Source of the DNA: Escherichia coli
GTDB taxonomy: Bacteria > Pseudomonadota > Gammaproteobacteria > Enterobacterales > Enterobacteriaceae
Strand: one strand, 5' to 3'
DNA length: 64,000 nucleotides
Assembly (NCBI RefSeq): GCF_003991155.1
Contig: NZ_CP031293.1
A program made the translations under genes and the position numbers. Below, one piece after another: positions 29,492 to 37,357 of this stretch (positions are counted from its first letter, which is position 1; each line of letters opens with the position of its first letter). Below the pieces are notes generated by a model. It was given only the letters and a program-made list of their open reading frames with translations. It was not told the origin of the DNA and did not search any database.

Positions 29492-29625
29492 AGTTTGCTC
29501 CTGCCATAACGTGAAGAAGCAATGACCTGGTGGTCCGTGACTTCCCTACGCTGGCATTATCCAGATCAGGTGATACGGGTATTTCTCAGCCTTCACGCAG
29601 AAGGGCACCCCGAGTCGTTTGGTTG
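29492..29625 (-). promoter_or_regulatory. TPP riboswitch (thi-box) leader of thiMD
   Basis: Minus-strand leader reads AACCAAACGACTCGGGGTGCCCTTCTGCGTGAAGGCTGAGAAATACCCGTATCACCTGATCTGGATAATGCCAGCGTAGGG, the thiM aptamer as I recall it, followed by the expression platform up to the thiM ATG. Confidence 0.85.
29544..29625. repeat. 82-bp direct repeat, left copy (attL-like); lies within the thiM riboswitch aptamer
   Basis: Perfect 82/82 identity with 37276..37357. Confidence 0.9.
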
Positions 29626-29837
29626 AATCTCTATATTTTGTGCCAGCTTAGGGGAAGTGGCTTGCAGATGCAAGCTCGCCTCCATTAATTGCTTCTTCTC
29701 TGTGTACCCCATTTTGTACCCCATATCAGAAATGAAAAAGAAACATTTAACATCTATCATTCAGATGATAAAAACTATTGATTATCTTAATTTGCTAATT
29801 TATATTATTTATCTAAATTTGATAGGTGAGATAAAAA

Positions 29838-30077
29838 ATGACAGAAACCCAGATCTACGAGAACATTAAGCAAGCCATTAGCAGCGCACCACGAAATAGC
29901 CAAACGATGGAAATGCACCTCCAGATGATCAAATATGCTGACCATCTGAAAAAGGTTACGGCAAAAGAGTTTTGTGAAGGTGTAGGACTTAAAGCCAGCT
30001 TTGGTACAGAGTTCAGCAAAATGAGAAATCTTACCGAGCGACTCAAAGCTGCTGGACTTGACACCACGAAGTTATAA
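29838..30077 (+). CDS. Hypothetical small protein (island)
   Basis: 79-aa ORF with SD-like GGTGAG upstream; no recognised motif. Confidence 0.4.
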   Translation: MTETQIYENIKQAISSAPRNSQTMEMHLQMIKYADHLKKVTAKEFCEGVGLKASFGTEFSKMRNLTERLKAAGLDTTKL

Positions 30078-30242
30078 AAAACAAATCATCAATATATTAT
30101 TTTTGTTTTCCAGACTTACTTGCATATGTTTCTACGAGCATAAAAAACAACAACCACCACATAGCTATTACCATAATAATGTTTTCCTTTTATATTAAAC
30201 AGAGAAATAGAATTAGAGCGTGGAATAGATGAATTCTATTTT

Positions 30243-30488
30243 CTATAACTTCTTGAGGTTGAATGTAGAAAAAGACAGCTCTTTCATTTCAATAACACCG
30301 AAATTTGATAGCTGTTTCAGCCAGAATTTTAAACCTGACTCAGAGCAACCTGCTCGATGTAACACATCGCTATATTTTAGCGGTGTTGGCTTTCCTTTAT
30401 AGAGGTAAACAAGCGTTTCGTAGGTGTGTTTTCCGGTGTCGTTACACTGAATGCGGTCTACTTGATTTTTTACTAAATATTGGATCAT
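30243..30488 (-). CDS. Hypothetical small protein, possible winged-helix (island)
   Basis: 81-aa ORF with AAGGAGG upstream, directly after the 239-aa gene stop. Confidence 0.45.
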   Translation of the reverse strand: MIQYLVKNQVDRIQCNDTGKHTYETLVYLYKGKPTPLKYSDVLHRAGCSESGLKFWLKQLSNFGVIEMKELSFSTFNLKKL

Positions 30489-30499
30489 AGTCCTCCTTA

Positions 30500-31219
30500 T
30501 TAAAATGGAATGTCAAAATCGTCCTCTTCTGTCTCAGGTATCGTGTATATATGTTCTCTTCCTGTAAATTCAGAAACCACTATTGAAATTAGCCTGTATG
30601 CCTCTATTTTATCGCCCTGCGTTTCAGCTAAAGCCCACTCAAGGGCTGCTTCTGTTGGCTGTCCATTCGGTTTGCAAATAGTGACACCGCCCCAAGGAAG
30701 CTCTGTTTTTTCCTGCTGAATAGAGCGTGTTGTTTCTAGTGTTTTTTTATCTTCCGTAGGGGGAAGCTGTTCAGGAACAGCTTTAACAGTAGATACTTGC
30801 TCTGTCTGTGGCTTTTCTGCATTTACAGAGGCTTTCGCTTCTCTTGGTGCTGTAATATGTGCATCTGTAAAGGGTAATGCTTTATAGAGTGATGTTTGAC
30901 CGTGGCGTGCCTCTACAGAAAGAACTCCCATATCAACAAACATATTTATAATATTGCGTACCTGACGATCACTAACCATTCCAATATTAGCTAATGTTTT
31001 TTGAGTAGCGTAACATTCTTGCCCTTGTTCATTGAATCCAGCTATATAGCTATAGATTTCAACGGCTGGCAGTGTAGCGGTGTATTCATTACCAGATGGT
31101 GAGTACCATTTTTTAAACATCTTCAACCATTGCTCAACAACTACATATTTTTGTTTACCATCTTTCTGATTTAGACATTTGGCTTTCGCTTCGGCAATTG
31201 TTTTGATATTTTTGATCAT
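30500..31219 (-). CDS. Putative replication-initiator-like DNA-binding protein with SSB-like acidic C-terminal tip (…EEDDFDIPF)
   Basis: 239-aa ORF with strong AAGGAGG SD; N-terminal wHTH-like segment, P/E/K/T-rich linker, C-terminus DDFDIPF. Confidence 0.6.
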   Translation of the reverse strand: MIKNIKTIAEAKAKCLNQKDGKQKYVVVEQWLKMFKKWYSPSGNEYTATLPAVEIYSYIAGFNEQGQECYATQKTLANIGMVSDRQVRNIINMFVDMGVLSVEARHGQTSLYKALPFTDAHITAPREAKASVNAEKPQTEQVSTVKAVPEQLPPTEDKKTLETTRSIQQEKTELPWGGVTICKPNGQPTEAALEWALAETQGDKIEAYRLISIVVSEFTGREHIYTIPETEEDDFDIPF

Positions 31220-31343
31220 TTAGTTCCTCCTTTGTAAGGACTGTAATTAGTAGTTCATTAACAAGTTTTGGAATTGATTTCCCTTCTGCCTTTGCGCGAT
31301 TTAACAACGCGTTATAAGTTGCAGAGTCAAAATTAATATTCAT
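31155..31343 (-). CDS. Ribbon-helix-helix (CopG/Arc-like) small DNA-binding protein
   Basis: Start at MNINFDSATYNALLNRAKAEGKS with GGAGAGGAGA SD; overlaps start of the Rep-like gene. Confidence 0.55.
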   Translation of the reverse strand: MNINFDSATYNALLNRAKAEGKSIPKLVNELLITVLTKEELNDQKYQNNCRSESQMSKSERW

Positions 31344-31365
31344 TTGGTTTTCTCCTCTCCTGTTA

Positions 31366-31548
31366 TTATTCTTTCTCTGCTTCTGCCTTACGCAGTTCAT
31401 CAATAATCTTGAGTGCATCGTCAAAGCATTTTTCACGCTCTGGATAACCTCGACTCCTTGCCATATTACGATTCATTACTACTTGATGTCGTGTTAACTC
31501 ACCTTTTTTAAATGCCTCTACGACGTGTTCCGGTATAAACCATTTCAT
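31366..31548 (-). CDS. Hypothetical 60-aa protein, first gene of the island's minus-strand operon
   Basis: ATG preceded by AAGGAG at optimal spacing; basic/acidic helical sequence. Confidence 0.5.
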   Translation of the reverse strand: MKWFIPEHVVEAFKKGELTRHQVVMNRNMARSRGYPEREKCFDDALKIIDELRKAEAEKE

Positions 31549-32323
31549 AAAAAACTCCTTATTCAGTTAAAAGAAAAACACCTTGCAAGCCTGACGGCTT
31601 CAAAGTGCATTGATTTTGATTATTTAGAGAAGAATGTTTTTCTGTCCCTCTAGTACCTATTATTACATATAAATAAACATTTGTCAATATCTTTTCATAA
31701 AAAATCAGAACCTTTTCATGCACTTACATTTTTTCTTAGCGATTCGTGCTCTCCTGTGTAGTGCTATTCTTCATTACCAGCTAAAACGCTCTAAAACGCG
31801 TTCTAACGAAGTTTTGATAAAAGCAATACATTCTCTTATGTAATGGCTGTTTAGCTCGCCAGAGGCTTATTTAAGTGGCTTATTTTGTATTTGTTAGATG
31901 ATGATAGATATAAAACAGAGAGTTCTTAGATTAGTTACTTTATAAAACGCTCTGTAAAGCCCTGTAGTGAGTTTATATATGTAGGCAAAGCGGTTTCCAT
32001 TCTCTACCCTGCTTAATGCTGTTAGAGAAGCATTTAGACCCCTTATTTTTAATTACCTAAAGTATCCTCTATACATCTCTGTTATGAAACACCTCTGAAT
32101 CCTTCATAAAACACATTATGACGCAAAGAACACTTTTCTAAGGTGATTCCCTTCCTGAACTCTGTTTCTTGCGTCAGAGAGCTACACAGAGAGCTTATAA
32201 AGCTATTATTAATAATAAAGTAGATAAAGTAAGTAAGATAAGTAAGAAGATTAACTAAGATAGATAAGATTAATAAGATCAGAATTCTCTTTCGGTGTCG
32301 CCTCTGGCTTTTCCACCGAAAAC

Positions 32324-33019
32324 AATTACACGACTACAGAATGTAGGAAGTGAAATTGTATTGAGGCTTAGTGAAATTACACGAGGAAAGCAGAGTGTAA
32401 TTGAGCTTTAGCCGCTCTCTCTTCGAGTAATTACACAACTACAGAGAATAACAGAGTTATTAAATGTAGGAGGGTAATTAAGAGTTAGAGAGAGTTAACA
32501 CGTAAGCAATCAGATGATTGGTTAGGTGATTACTCTTACTGCGCACAGCGCAATAGTATTCCTTCGTGGGCGTTACCGCCAACGATAGTTACACGAAGAA
32601 AGTAACGCTTTGCTTTCGGTGTGAGCGGAACGGGCCAGCCACAAAGCCCGAAAGGTAGCGGAGTAAGGCTGCTTGCCAGAGAGTGGAGCTAACGCCGGAA
32701 GGCAAAAGATCATATATATAGTATAAAGAATATTATTTAATTATAGTATTGGTGGAACTCATTACCTAAGGTAAACCGGAGACCACTTCCAACGGTTAGG
32801 CAACCACTTCCAATTGTGTTATTTCCCCTTTTACCCTAAGTAAATTTTAGCCTTTCGTTACATCCATTTATCACATAGCACTTACCCTGTGTAAATCATA
32901 GAATAATGCTCTCTATTCCCTGTGTAATTCCATACTAAAAAATTCAATGAAAAGTAGTTTAAAAGTGCAATGTTAGCTTTCTTCACTTTTACATCACTTT
33001 CGCTGCGCCTTGTGTAATG
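32324..33019. repeat. Iteron-like repeat cluster (AATTACAC core, both orientations) in a 1.75-kb non-coding region
   Basis: AATTACACGACTACAGA at ~32324 and AATTACACAACTACAGA at ~32429; shorter copies at ~32375 and inverted at ~32396, ~32885, ~32918, ~33008. Confidence 0.6.
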
Positions 33020-33312
33020 CGGCTTACAGAGCACTATCAGAAATTATTGATCAAAAATCAACCTATTATTTGTCGAACAAGTTTTCTTTAATGCAACAAA
33101 AATTATTTTTTCAAAATAAACACACAATTTAATAGCTTGCTAATTTTACCAAAATGTAACTACATGATTCTCATGCAAGAAGTGTAGTGATAAGGCAGGC
33201 TAAATCACCACACTAAAAAACTTCGAATTTCGTAGTGAAAAAAGTACTTTACACACCTAATCAACACGCCCAATAATCACTACACACAAATCAATACAGA
33301 AGAAAAAAGAAG

Positions 33313-33864
33313 ATGGCTAATATTGGATACATTAGGGTATCGACTGTGCAACAAAACACAGACCGTCAATTAGCAGGAGTAACTCTTGATAAAGTCTTTG
33401 AAGATAAAGCGTCAGGCAAGAACACTCAGCGCCCACAGTTTGAGGCAATGATGAACTATGTGCGGGAGGGTGACGTGTTACACGTCCATAGTATTGATCG
33501 CCTTTGTCGTAATACAGCCGACCTTCTGGCAACTGTAGAGCAATTAACAAAGCGCGGCGTGTCTGTGCATTTCCATAAAGAAGACTTTAAGACAGGAAAG
33601 AACTCTCCCGCAGGGAATATGATGCTCACAGTTCTTGCAGCAGTGGCACAAATGGAACGTGAAATGATGCTTGAGCGTCAACGTGAAGGGATCGCCGCAG
33701 CCAAGGCCGCTGGACGTATAGCAAAACGTGGTAATGGAAAAGCAATTGATCGAGCGGGAATTGCTGCCGCTCTCGCGAATGGTGGCTCAATTCGGAGCGT
33801 AGCAAAAGATTTCAGTGTCAGCACGCAGACGGTGCAACGTATCAAGAAAGAGCAGGTGGCGTAA
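33313..33864 (+). CDS. Small serine recombinase (resolvase/invertase family)
   Basis: 183 aa; N-terminal catalytic motif IGYIRVSTVQQNTDRQ with the nucleophilic Ser; C-terminal HTH. Confidence 0.85.
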   Translation: MANIGYIRVSTVQQNTDRQLAGVTLDKVFEDKASGKNTQRPQFEAMMNYVREGDVLHVHSIDRLCRNTADLLATVEQLTKRGVSVHFHKEDFKTGKNSPAGNMMLTVLAAVAQMEREMMLERQREGIAAAKAAGRIAKRGNGKAIDRAGIAAALANGGSIRSVAKDFSVSTQTVQRIKKEQVA

Positions 33865-34030
33865 TGCCTCCTTGATATTTGACAGGGACGGTCGGCAAAA
33901 ATCGGGGCTTGCTGATCTCAGCGTTGAGCGGTTCTTGCAATGGTGCCTAGGTGCTCGCTTGTATTCCCCTTCGATAATCACCACTAAGCCACTTATTGCC
34001 TTGTGGAGTGGCCCGAAAATTACTGATATC

Positions 34031-34531
34031 TTATTGATTCAGTCGATCCCATTTAACCGCAGATACAATTCCCCAATTACCACTAGCATTAGGCCTACGC
34101 CACTTCGCGGTTTCCATTCCACGAAGGTATTCGAGAGCTTCATTGAACGAACTGAAACGTTTCTGGGCTGATTTTTCCCCTACTCTAAACGAACCATCGC
34201 GAGTACTTGCCAATCCTGGATGAAAACACGACCCATCTGCAGCATAAGGAACAAGTACCTCCTGATCATCAGGTTTCCTTGAATCAGAAGCCAGTAACTG
34301 CCAAGGCTCAATACGCAAAGCGTCAGCCAGAACCTCAATTGCATCAAGAGATGCATTAGAGCAACCACGCTCAATTCGACTCATATAACTACGTGCAAAA
34401 CCACACCGATCTGCAAAGGCCTCTTGGCTTAAGCCAATAGCTATACGGAACTCTTTTACTCGTTGTCCAAAAAGGTATCTCAGATTCTTTCGCATGGCAC
34501 AAAGATGCAATTTGACGCACCAATTAACCAC
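34031..34531 (-). CDS. XRE-family HTH regulator with uncharacterised C-terminal domain
   Basis: Cro/C1-type HTH (GLSQEAFADRCGFARSYMSRIERG); likely start at internal Met (34495). Confidence 0.7.
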   Translation of the reverse strand: MVNWCVKLHLCAMRKNLRYLFGQRVKEFRIAIGLSQEAFADRCGFARSYMSRIERGCSNASLDAIEVLADALRIEPWQLLASDSRKPDDQEVLVPYAADGSCFHPGLASTRDGSFRVGEKSAQKRFSSFNEALEYLRGMETAKWRRPNASGNWGIVSAVKWDRLNQ

Positions 34532-34605
34532 GCACTAATCGTGACATTTTGAATCAATCATGTATTATTAGCATCACCATCCATTTGACACACCAAGGGA
34601 GACAA

Positions 34606-34953
34606 ATGAAAAAACTAGTATTTGCCGCTTTGTTAATTCCAGTGATGGGCCACGCCACAACCTTTTCCTGTAAAGCAATACAGGAAGGTCATATTGACTC
34701 GGGAAGTCAGAAAGTTTCTGTAGATTCAACTTTTGATATACAAGATAAAAAAATGACCATAAATCTTGGCGGTAAAACTTGGAGACTTGATTTGGTAGGT
34801 CAAAAAAGCATCGCAAAGATGTATGCTACACCTGACGGAGGGGTTGCAGCCACATACATTGACAATGGCAGTATACCGATATTTGTATTACGCCCTTCTA
34901 ATCCCGATGGGGAGATGGCTGTTTACACATTGAGTATGTGTTCTGAAGTATGA
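34606..34953 (+). CDS. Small secreted protein of unknown function
   Basis: Start at MKKLVFAALLIPVMGHA (signal peptide) with AAGGGAGA SD; divergent from the XRE gene. Confidence 0.6.
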   Translation: MKKLVFAALLIPVMGHATTFSCKAIQEGHIDSGSQKVSVDSTFDIQDKKMTINLGGKTWRLDLVGQKSIAKMYATPDGGVAATYIDNGSIPIFVLRPSNPDGEMAVYTLSMCSEV

Positions 34954-35030
34954 TTGATCGGCGTGATATTCACGCCGTTTTTGGGGAAATTTGTATATTG
35001 AAAAATATAGAAATAGAACTTTTATCAAGC

Positions 35031-35756
35031 CTATTTATTAACAGGTAGTAATGTCAGATCGCCATAATGGGCTTGTCTATGGCAATTAGGACATAATGCA
35101 ATAGCATTTTCCACAGAGTCCTCCCCCCCCTTTGAAAGCCACTCAATATGATGAACTTCTAGAAATGGAGTACCATCTTCCTTTAGAAAAGGAGCATCTC
35201 GCTTACAATATTGACATTTTCCATTTGCACTCAAAAGAACTTCAGCAACTACATATGGGCTTCGTTTATAAACTCGTGTTGTTACTTCGATTAGTTCCGG
35301 GATTTTACTTTCTGTCGCTAAAATTTGCTTTCGTTCCACTGAAGATAATTTTGCAGCCGTCTCAACAGCTTCTTCGAAAACCGATTTTACTTGACGATAA
35401 CGCCACATCCCTTCTAAATCCTGGTATAATTCCCAAATACCGTGCACAGATGGTTGATAGATTTCAAAAATATTTCCACGCTTGAACAATCGGTCATACT
35501 TATGATGCCGATGAGTTACATCATCAGTTCGTCGGGCAGTTTTGTTGAAACTCCAGTAGCTCCGCTTACAATTAACTGTATTAGCAATTAAATTGAGCCA
35601 AGTATTATCTTTATAAGATGGAAATAGCTTTCTAAGATAATCATCTACCTGCTTAGCCGTTGCAGCCCCACCAAACTGATTAGCAATTATCTGTATGGTA
35701 ATAGCTCTTATCGGTTGATCGCCATACTTGTATTTTTTGCCTAAATTTTTAACCAT
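35031..35756 (-). CDS. HNH endonuclease, McrA-like C-terminal nuclease domain with distinct N-terminal domain
   Basis: C-terminal CQYC...EVHHIEWLSKGG...NAIALCPNCHRQAHY zinc-finger HNH motif, similar to what I recall of E. coli McrA; ~150-aa N-terminal region unrecognised. Confidence 0.75.
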   Translation of the reverse strand: MVKNLGKKYKYGDQPIRAITIQIIANQFGGAATAKQVDDYLRKLFPSYKDNTWLNLIANTVNCKRSYWSFNKTARRTDDVTHRHHKYDRLFKRGNIFEIYQPSVHGIWELYQDLEGMWRYRQVKSVFEEAVETAAKLSSVERKQILATESKIPELIEVTTRVYKRSPYVVAEVLLSANGKCQYCKRDAPFLKEDGTPFLEVHHIEWLSKGGEDSVENAIALCPNCHRQAHYGDLTLLPVNK

Positions 35757-35884
35757 AGAAGACTCACTAAGCCTAAATTCATCTTAAGTTATTATTGTAA
35801 ATTAGTTGTGAAAATTTTTGATCTCAGACAATAAAAATCTACAAATTATTAGCTGGTTATACACTAAGAAGGATACACGAATAA

Positions 35885-37222
35885 CTAAGTCTCCCAACAA
35901 AGACCATCGATCACATAACAAACGGTGGAAAGTGGGAATGTGTGCAGATAACGCTGGGTAATCCCTACTCCACTCTTTTCATGACCTACCACCTGTTGCA
36001 GATGCGCCAAATTACTCACCCAACCAGCTAAACAAGTAGAAATCATAGTATGCCGGAAACTATGCACCAAGCGCCGCTGCCCATAATCATCAAGATAAGG
36101 AATATCAAGCTGATCACGAACATCTGAAAGAACTTTACCTATCTTTGACATATTTCGACCTGAGACTTCCGAAAAGATTTTCTCTTTCCATTGGCGGTTA
36201 ACAAAATCCAGAAACCCCCACTCAATCAGTTTGGGATGAATCACTACCTGTCTTGTAGCATTCTCAGTTTTACCCAGCCTTCTTTCCGCGATCAGAAGAT
36301 AGTGCCGCTGGCTATCTTCATCAAATTTGATCTGCGACTTCTCCAGTTTAGCAATCTCACCTCTTCTGGCTCCTGTGTACGCCAACAACAAAGTGATCCA
36401 CTTCTGCCATCCATCAGGCTGCTTTAGTGCCCATCCTACAAATTTTTTCATTTCTGCTGCACTGTATGCACCAAACCTAGCTTTGGATGGTGCCGCTACT
36501 ATTCCATCAGTCGGAGACTTAGATAGAATATCTTTGTTTTCAGTCAGAAATGTTTTGAATAACGATTTGTAGATTTTAAGGTGCTTATGTACAGCCTCAG
36601 CACCAACTAAATCCTCTGGCAGCACATCATCACATTCGATTAGTTGCTGAATAGTCATTGACCTATACGGTTGCACTACACGCTTTGGTAAGTTTTCGAC
36701 AGTTTCCATTACTCGCTTAATATCTTGTTTGGTGATTGCCGTTACGTCTGTTTCTTTTCCCAAGACAACAAGCAATACCTCCATATAACGCTCATTTGCC
36801 ATTGAGATCGATTTTGTCCAATTTCGACCTCTTTCCTCCTTGTACATAGCCCACGCATCAGCAAGTGTTAGCACCTTTTCCGGTTTGGCTGGTGGTTGAA
36901 GCTGCAAAACTTCTTTAGAAATATTGTTCAATTGCTGAGGGAGTGGCAACGGAATCATTACGTTACGTGACGAAGCGATCAAGTTTGAAACAAACTTATT
37001 AAATTGTGGCAACGGAGTAGCGAGTGATTTAACGAAAGGAATGTGCGGAGTAAGGCCAATCATCAACGCCGATGCTTCGCGATAACTGTCAGTAAAAAGT
37101 GATTTTTTGTATATCCGACCATCCGAAAGCCGGATTTGTAGATAGTAATTACCGTTTCGCTGAAATGTGTATGGGAGAGTTCTTGACCTCATAAACGCCC
37201 CCTTTTTGTACCTTAACAGCAT
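35885..37222 (-). CDS. Tyrosine site-specific integrase
   Basis: 445 aa; C-terminal catalytic region with HSFRHT and GITQRYLH; starts 53 bp from the right direct repeat. Confidence 0.85.
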   Translation of the reverse strand: MLLRYKKGAFMRSRTLPYTFQRNGNYYLQIRLSDGRIYKKSLFTDSYREASALMIGLTPHIPFVKSLATPLPQFNKFVSNLIASSRNVMIPLPLPQQLNNISKEVLQLQPPAKPEKVLTLADAWAMYKEERGRNWTKSISMANERYMEVLLVVLGKETDVTAITKQDIKRVMETVENLPKRVVQPYRSMTIQQLIECDDVLPEDLVGAEAVHKHLKIYKSLFKTFLTENKDILSKSPTDGIVAAPSKARFGAYSAAEMKKFVGWALKQPDGWQKWITLLLAYTGARRGEIAKLEKSQIKFDEDSQRHYLLIAERRLGKTENATRQVVIHPKLIEWGFLDFVNRQWKEKIFSEVSGRNMSKIGKVLSDVRDQLDIPYLDDYGQRRLVHSFRHTMISTCLAGWVSNLAHLQQVVGHEKSGVGITQRYLHTFPLSTVCYVIDGLCWET

Positions 37223-37275
37223 GATTTATGGTCAAAAAGAGATACAACCACATAATTTTCAAGACTATTTTGGCC

Positions 37276-37357
37276 CCCTACGCTGGCATTATCCAGATCA
37301 GGTGATACGGGTATTTCTCAGCCTTCACGCAGAAGGGCACCCCGAGTCGTTTGGTTG
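37276..37357. repeat. 82-bp direct repeat, right copy (attR-like); duplicate of the thiM aptamer segment
   Basis: Identical to 29544..29625; followed by native sequence leading into rcnR. Confidence 0.9.

What the first reader, a model, noticed from the sequence alone, without database searches (positions are those of the whole stretch)
35031..35756. Island cargo: McrA-like HNH nuclease with an unrecognised N-terminal domain, a candidate modification-dependent restriction or defence gene
The C-terminal ~70 aa carry a zinc-finger HNH motif (CQYC...EVHHIEWLSKGG...CPNCHRQAHY) closely resembling what I recall of the E. coli McrA catalytic domain. The ~150-aa N-terminal region does not resemble the McrA N-terminus as I recall it. 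McrA itself is carried on the e14 element, so nuclease cargo beside an integrase has precedent. It could be a type IV restriction enzyme with different specificity, or part of an uncharacterised defence module together with the adjacent XRE regulator and secreted protein.
Basis: partly seen in the sequence, partly recalled or inferred. Interest (0 to 1): 0.65.

Follow-up and report, generated by a model that had tools for sequence, protein, structure and literature searches.

The report
McrA-like nuclease with winged-helix sensor
A small mobile island in this E. coli carries an intact nuclease gene whose cutting half closely resembles the McrA restriction enzyme; its front half is an uncharacterised winged-helix DNA-sensing domain (Pfam DUF7669 type) also found on many other restriction nucleases, so it is probably a stand-alone anti-phage restriction enzyme with an unknown target.

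Summary
A 241-aa ORF lies at 35031-35756 on the minus strand, 128 bp downstream of a tyrosine integrase, inside a 7.7-kb low-GC island. The island is bounded by 82-nt direct repeats in the thiM TPP riboswitch.

Residues 141-232 are 46% identical to the EcoKMcrA HNH domain (E 8.5e-23). All four zinc cysteines and the H-H/N/H/H catalytic residues are invariant in 36 full-length family members.

The N-terminal ~125 residues are not McrA's NEco domain, but they are recognisable. They form a confidently modelled extended winged helix (pLDDT 92) and belong, through profile and fold searches, to Pfam DUF7669, a domain with no described function. This domain recurs fused to HNH, HNH_2, NucS/PD-(D/E)XK, GIY-YIG and DUF262 nucleases, and to a McrB GTPase that sits next to McrC.

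No methyltransferase and no conserved partner gene lies beside any orthologue examined. The best reading is a stand-alone type IV-like restriction endonuclease whose reader domain and target are uncharacterised. Dam and Dcm marks are unlikely targets because the host carries them.

The proposed three-gene module with the XRE regulator and the secreted protein is not supported. Nothing here has been tested experimentally. I rate it a new variant of a known kind, of moderate interest.

The parts
35031..35756 (-). Complete gene for the 241-aa DUF7669-like winged-helix / McrA-type HNH nuclease (stop codon 35031-35033)
   Evidence: ORF list and sequence. RefSeq CDS WP_000240373.1 'HNH endonuclease'. 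About 500 homologues, full-length at 60-84% identity across Enterobacterales.
35382..35738 (-). N-terminal sensor domain, residues ~7-125. It is an extended winged helix (H1 16-27, S1 31-33, H2 34-44, H3 52-58, a conserved 30-residue insert, wing hairpin 90-99, second hairpin 108-122) and a divergent member of Pfam DUF7669.
35262..35381 (-). Linker, residues 126-165: two helices and then an extended segment. From residue 141 it aligns with the EcoKMcrA segment that includes the domain-swapped 'crossover' strand used for dimerisation.
   Evidence: The alignment to 6ghc starts at query 141. The crossover region is described in PMC6182155. The AF2 model has no regular secondary structure for 149-166 at pLDDT about 88-92. 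Dimerisation is inferred, not shown.
35061..35261 (-). McrA-type beta-beta-alpha-metal HNH nuclease core, residues 166-232. Zinc ligands are C181, C184, C222 and C225; catalytic residues are H202, H203, N217, H226 and H230.
   Evidence: Pfam HNH at 181-230. These residues map to McrA C207/C210/C248/C251 and H228/H229/H252/H256, assuming a 10-residue tag offset in 6ghc. Mutating those McrA histidines abolishes cleavage (PMC6182155). All nine residues are invariant in 36 full-length family members.
35885..37222 (-). Tyrosine integrase of the island, immediately upstream on the same strand. The likely start is the ATG at 37192.
   Evidence: PHROG integrase E 9e-27. RefSeq annotates a 435-aa CDS. 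Start-site context.
29544..29625 (.). Left 82-nt direct repeat (att) of the 7.7-kb island, within the thiM TPP riboswitch
   Evidence: Exact 82-nt direct repeat, 7732 nt start-to-start. Rfam TPP hit at 29526-29622, 71 bits. GC falls to 34-45% between the repeats.
37276..37357 (.). Right 82-nt direct repeat (att) of the island; forms a second, chimeric TPP aptamer upstream of the integrase
   Evidence: (37259-37354, 61 bits).

Best explanation
The gene encodes a stand-alone, single-polypeptide restriction endonuclease of the type IV (modification-dependent) kind, carried as cargo on a small integrative island.

Shown:
- The C-terminal domain is a McrA-type Cys4-zinc HNH nuclease with a complete active site.
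- The N-terminal domain is an extended winged-helix fold of the DUF7669 family.
- That domain is a mobile module fused in other organisms to at least six other restriction-type effectors.
- The gene has no methyltransferase and no conserved partner gene beside it.

Inferred:
- The winged-helix domain binds double-stranded DNA and reads a feature of foreign DNA, most likely a base modification the host lacks. It would do so through its recognition helix, the conserved VN..R...RRTD insert and the Y100/H105/W108 cluster.
- Two protomers dimerise through the HNH domains and the crossover segment, as in EcoKMcrA. They would then form one joint catalytic site that cuts both strands near the recognised site, using Mn2+ or a similar ion.
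- Host DNA is spared because it lacks the recognised feature. Since E. coli is normally Dam+ and usually Dcm+, Gm6ATC and C5mCWGG are unlikely to be the targets.

The specific target is unknown. Candidates include 5hmC or glucosyl-5hmC, 5mC or 6mA in non-host contexts, phosphorothioate, 7-deazaguanines and Mom-type adenine adducts.
For: - The HNH domain matches EcoKMcrA at E 8.5e-23, 46% identity over 92 residues.
- The catalytic and zinc residues that are essential in McrA (PMC6182155) are all present and invariant in 36 family members.
- The closest solved structures to the full model are type IV enzymes only: EcoKMcrA at 3e-9, ScoMcrA at 8e-5, then TagI.
- The N-domain is modelled with high confidence as a winged helix.
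- The same ~115-residue module is fused to HNH_2 (19 of 41 relatives), NucS_C PD-(D/E)XK (3) and McrB-type AAA_5 (2). AFDB50 adds DUF91, DUF1016, RecB-like, GIY-YIG, DUF262, DUF3427 and 'restriction protein B' proteins.
- One relative, P0145, has DUF7669 followed by the McrB AAA domain and McrB_lid, and its gene is followed by a McrC gene. The domain therefore occupies the slot of McrB's DNA-reader domain.
- No methyltransferase or recurrent neighbour appears in five different genomic contexts. The neighbourhoods are rich in mobile-element and defence genes: AIPR, reverse transcriptase, AAA_15/21, integrases and IS elements.
- Winged helix-HNH fusions of 224-283 aa are already shown to be type IV enzymes (PMC11037411).
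- The N-domain evolves faster than the HNH domain (mean 63% versus 80% identity to the query), as expected of a specificity module.
Against: - There are no experimental data for this protein or for any DUF7669 domain. No paper mentions DUF7669 or the protein accession.
- The query does not hit the Pfam DUF7669 model directly. The link rests on intermediate sequences, profiles and fold.
- Fusion to nucleases shows a DNA-targeting role. It does not show modification dependence: a winged helix could read an unmodified sequence or DNA shape.
- The HNH gene diverges in step with the integrase between sister islands (76% versus 78%). It may therefore be island backbone rather than freely swapped cargo.
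- No clear sigma-70 promoter was found on the gene's strand between the integrase and the HNH gene.
- One genome carries the gene disrupted by IS1.
Confidence: 0.6

Rival explanations
1. It is a restriction nuclease blocked by modification rather than dependent on it. The winged helix would read an unmodified site that the host's own solitary methyltransferases (Dam or Dcm) keep methylated. The enzyme would spare the chromosome and cut incoming DNA that lacks that methylation. No dedicated methyltransferase gene would then be needed next to it.
For: The McrA-type HNH branch of the family is concentrated in Enterobacterales, which are Dam+ by general knowledge. No methyltransferase is adjacent. 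Some eukaryotic winged-helix domains sense non-methylated CpG (abstract of PMC11037411).
Against: DUF7669 relatives fused to nucleases occur in Pseudomonas, Xanthomonas, Stenotrophomonas, Clostridium and Tumebacillus, which generally lack Dam (general knowledge, not checked here). The best-understood fusion partners (McrB/McrC, DUF262/GmrS-like, DUF3427, McrA-type HNH) belong to modification-dependent systems. Most coliphages replicating in E. coli would acquire Dam and Dcm marks, so such an enzyme would give little protection.
Confidence: 0.12
2. It is a backbone gene of the island. Its nuclease would serve the element itself, for example by attacking a helper or competing phage genome to favour the island, or by processing island DNA, rather than acting as general host defence.
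For: In the sister island at the same att site, the integrase and HNH genes are kept side by side at similar divergence (78% and 76%), while the DNA beyond the HNH gene is replaced. In Klebsiella the orthologue lies between integrases next to satellite-like capsid genes. The island has a replication-initiator-like gene.
Against: Orthologues also occur with no integrase or island nearby: beside SRAP and umuDC in Klebsiella, and beside IS elements in Citrobacter. The reader domain is shared with chromosomal McrBC-type and NucS-type systems. No phage in the 50,697-record collection encodes the N-domain. The gene is dispensable, since one genome has it disrupted by IS1.
Confidence: 0.13
3. It is a selfish homing-type HNH endonuclease whose winged helix recognises a long unmodified target site.
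For: HNH nucleases fused to DNA-binding modules are common homing enzymes. Weak PHROG hits to phage 'HNH endonuclease' families exist.
Against: The strongest matches are all type IV restriction enzymes, not homing families. The gene is not inside an intron, an intein or a phage gene. It is not found in phage genomes over its N-domain. It sits at different loci with no duplicated target context.
Confidence: 0.04
4. It works as a three-gene defence module with the adjacent XRE regulator (34031-34531) and the secreted 115-aa protein (34606-34953).
For: The genes are adjacent in this island. The HTH part of the XRE protein resembles restriction-modification control proteins (PADLOC E 6.6e-17).
Against: The three genes are on alternating strands and are not an operon. 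No orthologous locus examined carries an XRE neighbour. The homologue of the secreted protein in the sister island lies beyond the AIPR cargo, next to the resolvase. In Klebsiella and Citrobacter neither gene is present.
Confidence: 0.05

Closest known systems
EcoKMcrA (E. coli K-12 e14 element; PDB 6ghc)
   Same: The C-terminal Cys4-zinc HNH nuclease is 46% identical over 92 residues, including the segment before the core that forms the dimer crossover. All residues shown by mutagenesis to be needed for cleavage are conserved. Both have a two-domain reader-then-nuclease layout, are carried on an integrative element and have no methyltransferase partner.
   Different: The N-terminal domain is unrelated. 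McrA's NEco domain is built on a six-stranded antiparallel beta-sheet (PMC6182155). This one is a helix-rich winged helix with no sequence match to McrA residues 1-165. Specificity therefore cannot be transferred from McrA.
Winged helix-HNH and PUA-winged helix-HNH type IV enzymes (SruGXI, HhiV4I, HtuIII; Helbrecht et al. 2024, PMC11037411)
   Same: The architecture and size are the same: a winged helix then HNH, 224-283 aa. A longer series with an extra N-terminal reader parallels the DUF3427-like/DUF7669/HNH_2 relatives found here. Methyltransferases are rarely nearby, and the Mn2+-type McrA-like HNH is shared.
Pfam DUF7669 (PF24706), domain of unknown function
   Same: Relatives of the N-domain found by phmmer and by profile carry this Pfam domain (24 of 41). 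AFDB models named 'DUF7669 domain-containing protein' superpose at TM 0.7-0.8 over 112-130 columns.
   Different: The Pfam model (75 positions) covers only the first part of the ~115-residue unit defined here. The query itself falls below the Pfam reporting threshold. No function or publication is attached to the family.
McrBC with variable N-terminal reader domains on McrB
   Same: A relative (P0145) carries the same domain at the N-terminus of a McrB GTPase that is followed by McrC. This is the position where McrB proteins carry their DNA-modification reader.
   Different: The window protein has no NTPase and no partner subunit. It should act without NTP hydrolysis or translocation.
ScoMcrA / SBD-HNH phosphorothioate-dependent enzymes (PDB 5zmm; NCBIfam NF045808)
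   Same: The HNH domain is related (E 1.1e-7 to 5zmm; NF045808 E 5.6e-7 over the HNH part only).
   Different: The SBD and SRA reader domains are absent. Only profile positions 153-230 of NF045808 are matched.

Membership tests
EcoKMcrA family | McrA-type HNH with a Cys4 zinc site and catalytic H228/H229/H252/H256 | tested here: met
   C181/C184/C222/C225 and H202/H203/H226/H230 plus N217 align to the McrA residues. They are invariant in 36 members.
EcoKMcrA family | NEco N-terminal 5mC/5hmC-binding domain | tested here: not met
   No alignment to McrA before chain residue 176. The fold is a winged helix, not the NEco beta-sheet. Foldseek of the full model against 6ghc gives TMq of only 0.32.
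EcoKMcrA family | Dimerisation through the HNH domains with a swapped crossover strand | tested here: inconclusive
   The crossover segment is within the aligned region, but only a monomer was modelled.
EcoKMcrA family | Restriction of 5mC/5hmC-containing DNA | not testable with these tools
   Needs phage and plasmid assays.
Winged helix-HNH type IV enzymes (PMC11037411) | N-terminal winged-helix fold joined to a C-terminal HNH in one chain of about 220-290 aa | tested here: met
Winged helix-HNH type IV enzymes (PMC11037411) | The winged helix is homologous to the DpnI/HhiV4I adenine-methylation sensor | tested here: not met
Winged helix-HNH type IV enzymes (PMC11037411) | Toxicity or cleavage dependent on Dam (Gm6ATC) methylation | not testable with these tools
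   Stable residence of the intact gene in 97 complete E. coli genomes argues against it, by inference.
Type IV (modification-dependent) restriction in general | No cognate methyltransferase encoded alongside | tested here: met
   No methyltransferase domain appears in the island or in orthologous loci.
Type IV (modification-dependent) restriction in general | Cleavage requires modified DNA | not testable with these tools
   Biochemistry is required.
Pfam DUF7669 | A match to PF24706 | tested here: inconclusive
   The direct scan of the query gives no hit at E up to 10. Its phmmer relatives do hit (24 of 41 at E up to 1e-3). The family profile hits PF24706 proteins at E 1e-34 to 1e-20. The fold match is TM 0.7-0.8. 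The query is a homologue, but a divergent one.
HNH homing endonucleases | Membership of a homing HNH subfamily, or location in an intron, an intein or a free-standing phage gene | tested here: not met
   The best matches are type IV enzymes. The gene is chromosomal island cargo. No phage carries the full gene.
Type II restriction-modification | An adjacent cognate methyltransferase | tested here: not met
   None in the island.

The most novel reading that the evidence does not exclude
DUF7669 is a previously unrecognised class of DNA-modification reader: an extended winged helix with a conserved VN-R-RRTD insert and a Y/H/W cluster. Bacteria would plug it interchangeably into HNH, PD-(D/E)XK, GIY-YIG, GmrS-like and McrBC effectors. 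The enterobacterial McrA-type branch would recognise a phage DNA modification that no characterised type IV enzyme of E. coli reads, for example a hypermodified base rather than 5mC, 5hmC or Dam-type 6mA.
Probability: 0.3. Interest if true: 0.7.

Novelty: new variant of a known kind. Interest (0 to 1): 0.45.

Why it matters
Modular type IV restriction enzymes are a main barrier to phages with modified DNA. They are also the source of tools for mapping epigenetic marks, such as MspJI, AbaSI and DpnI.

The nuclease half of this protein is ordinary. The sensor half belongs to a widespread domain family with no assigned function and no publication.

Determining what it reads would annotate hundreds of 'HNH endonuclease', 'DUF91' and 'McrB' genes at once. 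It could also add a new modification-specific reagent. The E. coli protein is small, is a single chain and comes from a tractable host, so it is a convenient entry point.

If the target turns out to be an already covered mark such as 5hmC, the result would be a routine addition to the type IV catalogue.

Tried and rejected
- Direct family scans of the whole protein (Pfam, NCBIfam, PADLOC, PHROGs, PDB sequences) recognise only the HNH half.
- A profile of the N-domain against all PDB sequences found no solved relative.
- I looked for the N-domain in 50,697 phage genomes with two queries and found only HNH-part matches.
- I considered the RAMA and HARE-HTH reader domains because their fusion partners are strikingly similar (PMC4738411). 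No Pfam hit to either appeared among 41 relatives, and RAMA is reported to have a different fold, so this was rejected as homology and kept as an analogy.
- I checked whether the C-terminal part of the XRE neighbour is a known reader domain. It has no Pfam match.
- The supplements of PMC11037411 hold no winged-helix sequences, so a direct comparison with SruGXI or HhiV4I was not possible.
- END nucleases (PMC12191111) use a different sensor, inactive EndoIII, and are not related.
- The promoter scan between the integrase and HNH genes was uninformative.
- The 1.6-kb ORF-free stretch of the island gave no Rfam, repeat or phage match.

Full report
**The observation.** RefSeq annotates the identical CDS as 'HNH endonuclease' WP_000240373.1. 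The quoted motifs are at residues 181 (CQYC), 200 (EVHHIEWLSKGG) and 222 (CPNCHRQAHY).

**Setting.** The window is E. coli chromosome, from the gat operon through thiD-thiM, then the island, then rcnR-rcnA-rcnB and yehA-D. The gene lies 128 bp downstream of a tyrosine integrase on the same strand. Both are inside a 7.7-kb stretch of 34-45% GC, bounded by exact 82-nt direct repeats at 29544-29625 and 37276-37357. Both repeats score as TPP riboswitch aptamers, so the element has integrated into the thiM leader. This allele is present in 68 of 5426 complete E. coli genomes. A further 31 carry an allele about 76% identical.

**The nuclease half.**
- phmmer against PDB sequences gives EcoKMcrA (6ghc) at E 8.5e-23 over query 141-232, then ScoMcrA (5zmm) at 1e-7.
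- Identity to McrA is 42 of 92 positions.
- If the 287-residue crystallised chain carries a 10-residue tag, the McrA residues whose mutation abolishes cleavage (H228, H229, H252, H256; PMC6182155) correspond to H202, H203, H226 and H230. The four zinc cysteines correspond to C181, C184, C222 and C225.
- All nine zinc and catalytic positions, N217 included, are invariant in 36 full-length family members.
- Foldseek of the full AF2 model (pLDDT 94.6) against PDB ranks EcoKMcrA first, then ScoMcrA. TagI follows among more distant HNH proteins such as Cas5-HNH and Cap5. The top matches are type IV enzymes.
- The PADLOC type IV model matches only residues 149-232.
- The alignment with McrA begins before the HNH core and includes the segment that forms the swapped crossover strand of the McrA dimer. 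A McrA-like homodimer is therefore plausible but was not tested.
- Nothing places the protein in a homing-endonuclease family.

**The N-terminal half: what it is.**
- It matches nothing directly in Pfam, NCBIfam, PADLOC, PHROGs or PDB sequences, and it is not McrA's NEco domain.
- A phmmer search of residues 1-153 against 1.84 billion representative proteins gave 60 hits.
- Their sequences show a discrete ~115-residue module that appears at the N-terminus, in the middle or in tandem.
- Pfam scans of 41 such relatives name its first ~70 residues DUF7669 (PF24706) in 24 of them.
- A profile of the domain hits PF24706-annotated proteins at E 1e-34 to 1e-20.
- The domain alone models confidently (pLDDT 91.6). 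It is a winged helix (H1-S1-H2-H3-wing) with a 30-residue conserved insert between the recognition helix and the wing, plus an extra beta-hairpin.
- N62, D88 and G106 are invariant across 76 sequences. V61, R65, R75, L90, Y100 and H105 are nearly so, and position 108 is always aromatic.

**The N-terminal half: what it is attached to.**
- In the 41 relatives the partners are HNH_2 (19), NucS_C PD-(D/E)XK (3), McrA-type HNH (2) and McrB-type AAA_5 (2). By eye, several also share an additional N-terminal module that I took to be DUF3427-like; Pfam supports this only weakly (one relative, E 2.5e-3; sequences).
- Foldseek against AFDB50 finds the whole fold (TM 0.7-0.8 over 112-130 columns) in proteins described as DUF7669, HNH, DUF91/NucS, DUF1016, RecB-like nuclease, GIY-YIG, DUF262, DUF3427 and '5-methylcytosine-specific restriction protein B'.
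- One relative, P0145, has DUF7669 followed by the McrB AAA domain and McrB_lid, and its gene is followed directly by a McrC gene. The domain thus occupies the position where McrB proteins carry their DNA reader.
- This combinatorial pattern is the signature of a target-recognition module of restriction systems. It parallels what has been described for the RAMA, HARE-HTH, PUA and DpnI-type winged-helix domains (PMC4738411; PMC11037411).

**Genomic context of orthologues.**
- The 76%-identical E. coli allele sits in a sister island at the same att site, again next to the integrase. The DNA beyond it is different: four small ORFs and an AIPR abortive-infection protein.
- In Klebsiella one orthologue lies beside SRAP, umuDC, a reverse transcriptase and an AAA_15/21 ATPase. 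Another lies between integrases near satellite-type capsid genes.
- In Citrobacter it is flanked by IS elements.
- No locus has a DNA methyltransferase and no neighbour recurs.
- The XRE regulator and the secreted protein next to the gene in this window are not conserved partners. The secreted-protein homologue in the sister island is several genes away, beside the resolvase. The three-gene module idea is therefore not supported.
- No phage genome in a 50,697-record collection encodes the N-domain.

**Mechanism proposed.** The protein is most likely a stand-alone type IV-like restriction endonuclease. The extended winged helix binds duplex DNA and recognises a feature absent from host DNA. Two protomers pair through the HNH domains and cut near the site. 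Self-DNA is spared because it lacks the feature, not because of a partner methyltransferase.
- Shown: the fold, the intact active site, the domain shuffling, and the absence of a methyltransferase or partner.
- Inferred: DNA binding by the N-domain, modification dependence, dimerisation, and the defence role.

Because the intact gene lives stably in E. coli, which is normally Dam+ and usually Dcm+ (general knowledge), Gm6ATC is an unlikely target, and so is C5mCWGG. Gm6ATC is the target of the characterised haloarchaeal winged helix-HNH enzymes. The actual target cannot be deduced from sequence.

**Rivals.** There are four:
- An enzyme blocked by host Dam or Dcm methylation that attacks unmethylated DNA.
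- An island backbone nuclease used against helper or competing phages. This is suggested by the similar divergence of the integrase and HNH genes between sister islands.
- A homing endonuclease.
- The three-gene module.

Each is given with its evidence and refuting result in the rival-explanations section.

**Comparison with the known, and novelty.**
- In function and architecture the protein is closest to two groups. One is EcoKMcrA, which has the same nuclease but an unrelated reader. The other is the winged helix-HNH type IV enzymes of Helbrecht et al. 2024, which have the same architecture but a reader with no detectable homology to this one and an incompatible target.
No paper in the searched library mentions it or this protein.
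- Some pipelines already label the protein 'HNH endonuclease' or '5-methylcytosine-specific restriction protein A', so the gene is not undiscovered.
- I classify it as a new variant of a known kind. Interest is moderate. It rests on the chance that DUF7669 reads a mark not covered by known type IV enzymes.

**Limits.** All functional statements are computational. Only monomers were modelled. The census of DUF7669 architectures rests on 41 representative proteins plus the top 50 AFDB50 matches, not on the whole family.

Noticed in passing
window 29526-29625 and 37259-37357: The island is integrated inside the thiM TPP riboswitch and duplicates 82 nt of the aptamer, so Rfam calls two TPP riboswitches (71 and 61 bits). 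thiM keeps a complete aptamer and expression platform but is separated from its native promoter by 7.7 kb of island. The native promoter and a chimeric aptamer now lie about 66 nt upstream of the integrase start (ATG 37192, preceded by AAGGGGG). The integrase, and possibly the HNH gene downstream on the same strand, could therefore be transcribed from the thiM promoter under thiamine pyrophosphate control.
   Followed up: partly
window 31724-33312: A 1.6-kb stretch of the island has no ORF over 50 aa. It lies between a 60-aa ORF and the serine recombinase gene. It has no Rfam match, no phage match and only weak repeats. Two short segments (around 31396-31616, partly upstream of this stretch, and 32355-32561) are about 69% identical to a Klebsiella locus. 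A comparable gene-free gap exists in the sister islands. It may be an origin, a packaging site or a non-coding RNA, but it remains unexplained.
   Followed up: partly
L002-L005 (sister island at the same rcnR/thiM site) compared with window 29544-37357: Other E. coli carry a related island at the same att site. The integrase is 78% identical, the HNH gene 76% and the replication-initiator-like gene 68-71%. The segment between the HNH gene and the resolvase is replaced by four small ORFs and an AIPR (PF10592) abortive-infection gene, in some genomes with IS1 insertions. This looks like a variable defence-cargo slot in a small satellite-like element.
   Followed up: partly
window 34031-34531 (minus strand): The XRE-family protein (166 aa) has an N-terminal HTH that resembles restriction-modification control proteins (PADLOC E 6.6e-17). 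Its ~80-residue C-terminal part has no Pfam or NCBIfam match.
   Followed up: partly
window 33313-33864 and 34606-34953: The order of the serine recombinase (DNA invertase-like, PHROG E 2e-61) and the secreted 115-aa protein differs between this island and the sister islands. This suggests an inversion or rearrangement of that segment.
   Followed up: no
NZ_CP195347.1 3122126-3123627 (hit H1): In one complete E. coli genome the same HNH gene is split by an IS1 insertion, so the gene can be lost without obvious harm.
   Followed up: no
proteins P0142, P0151 and P0152 (relatives of the N-domain): Some relatives carry two tandem copies of the DUF7669-type domain. One (P0152) has it fused to a serine resolvase domain, a partner also reported for the unrelated RAMA reader domain.
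   Followed up: no
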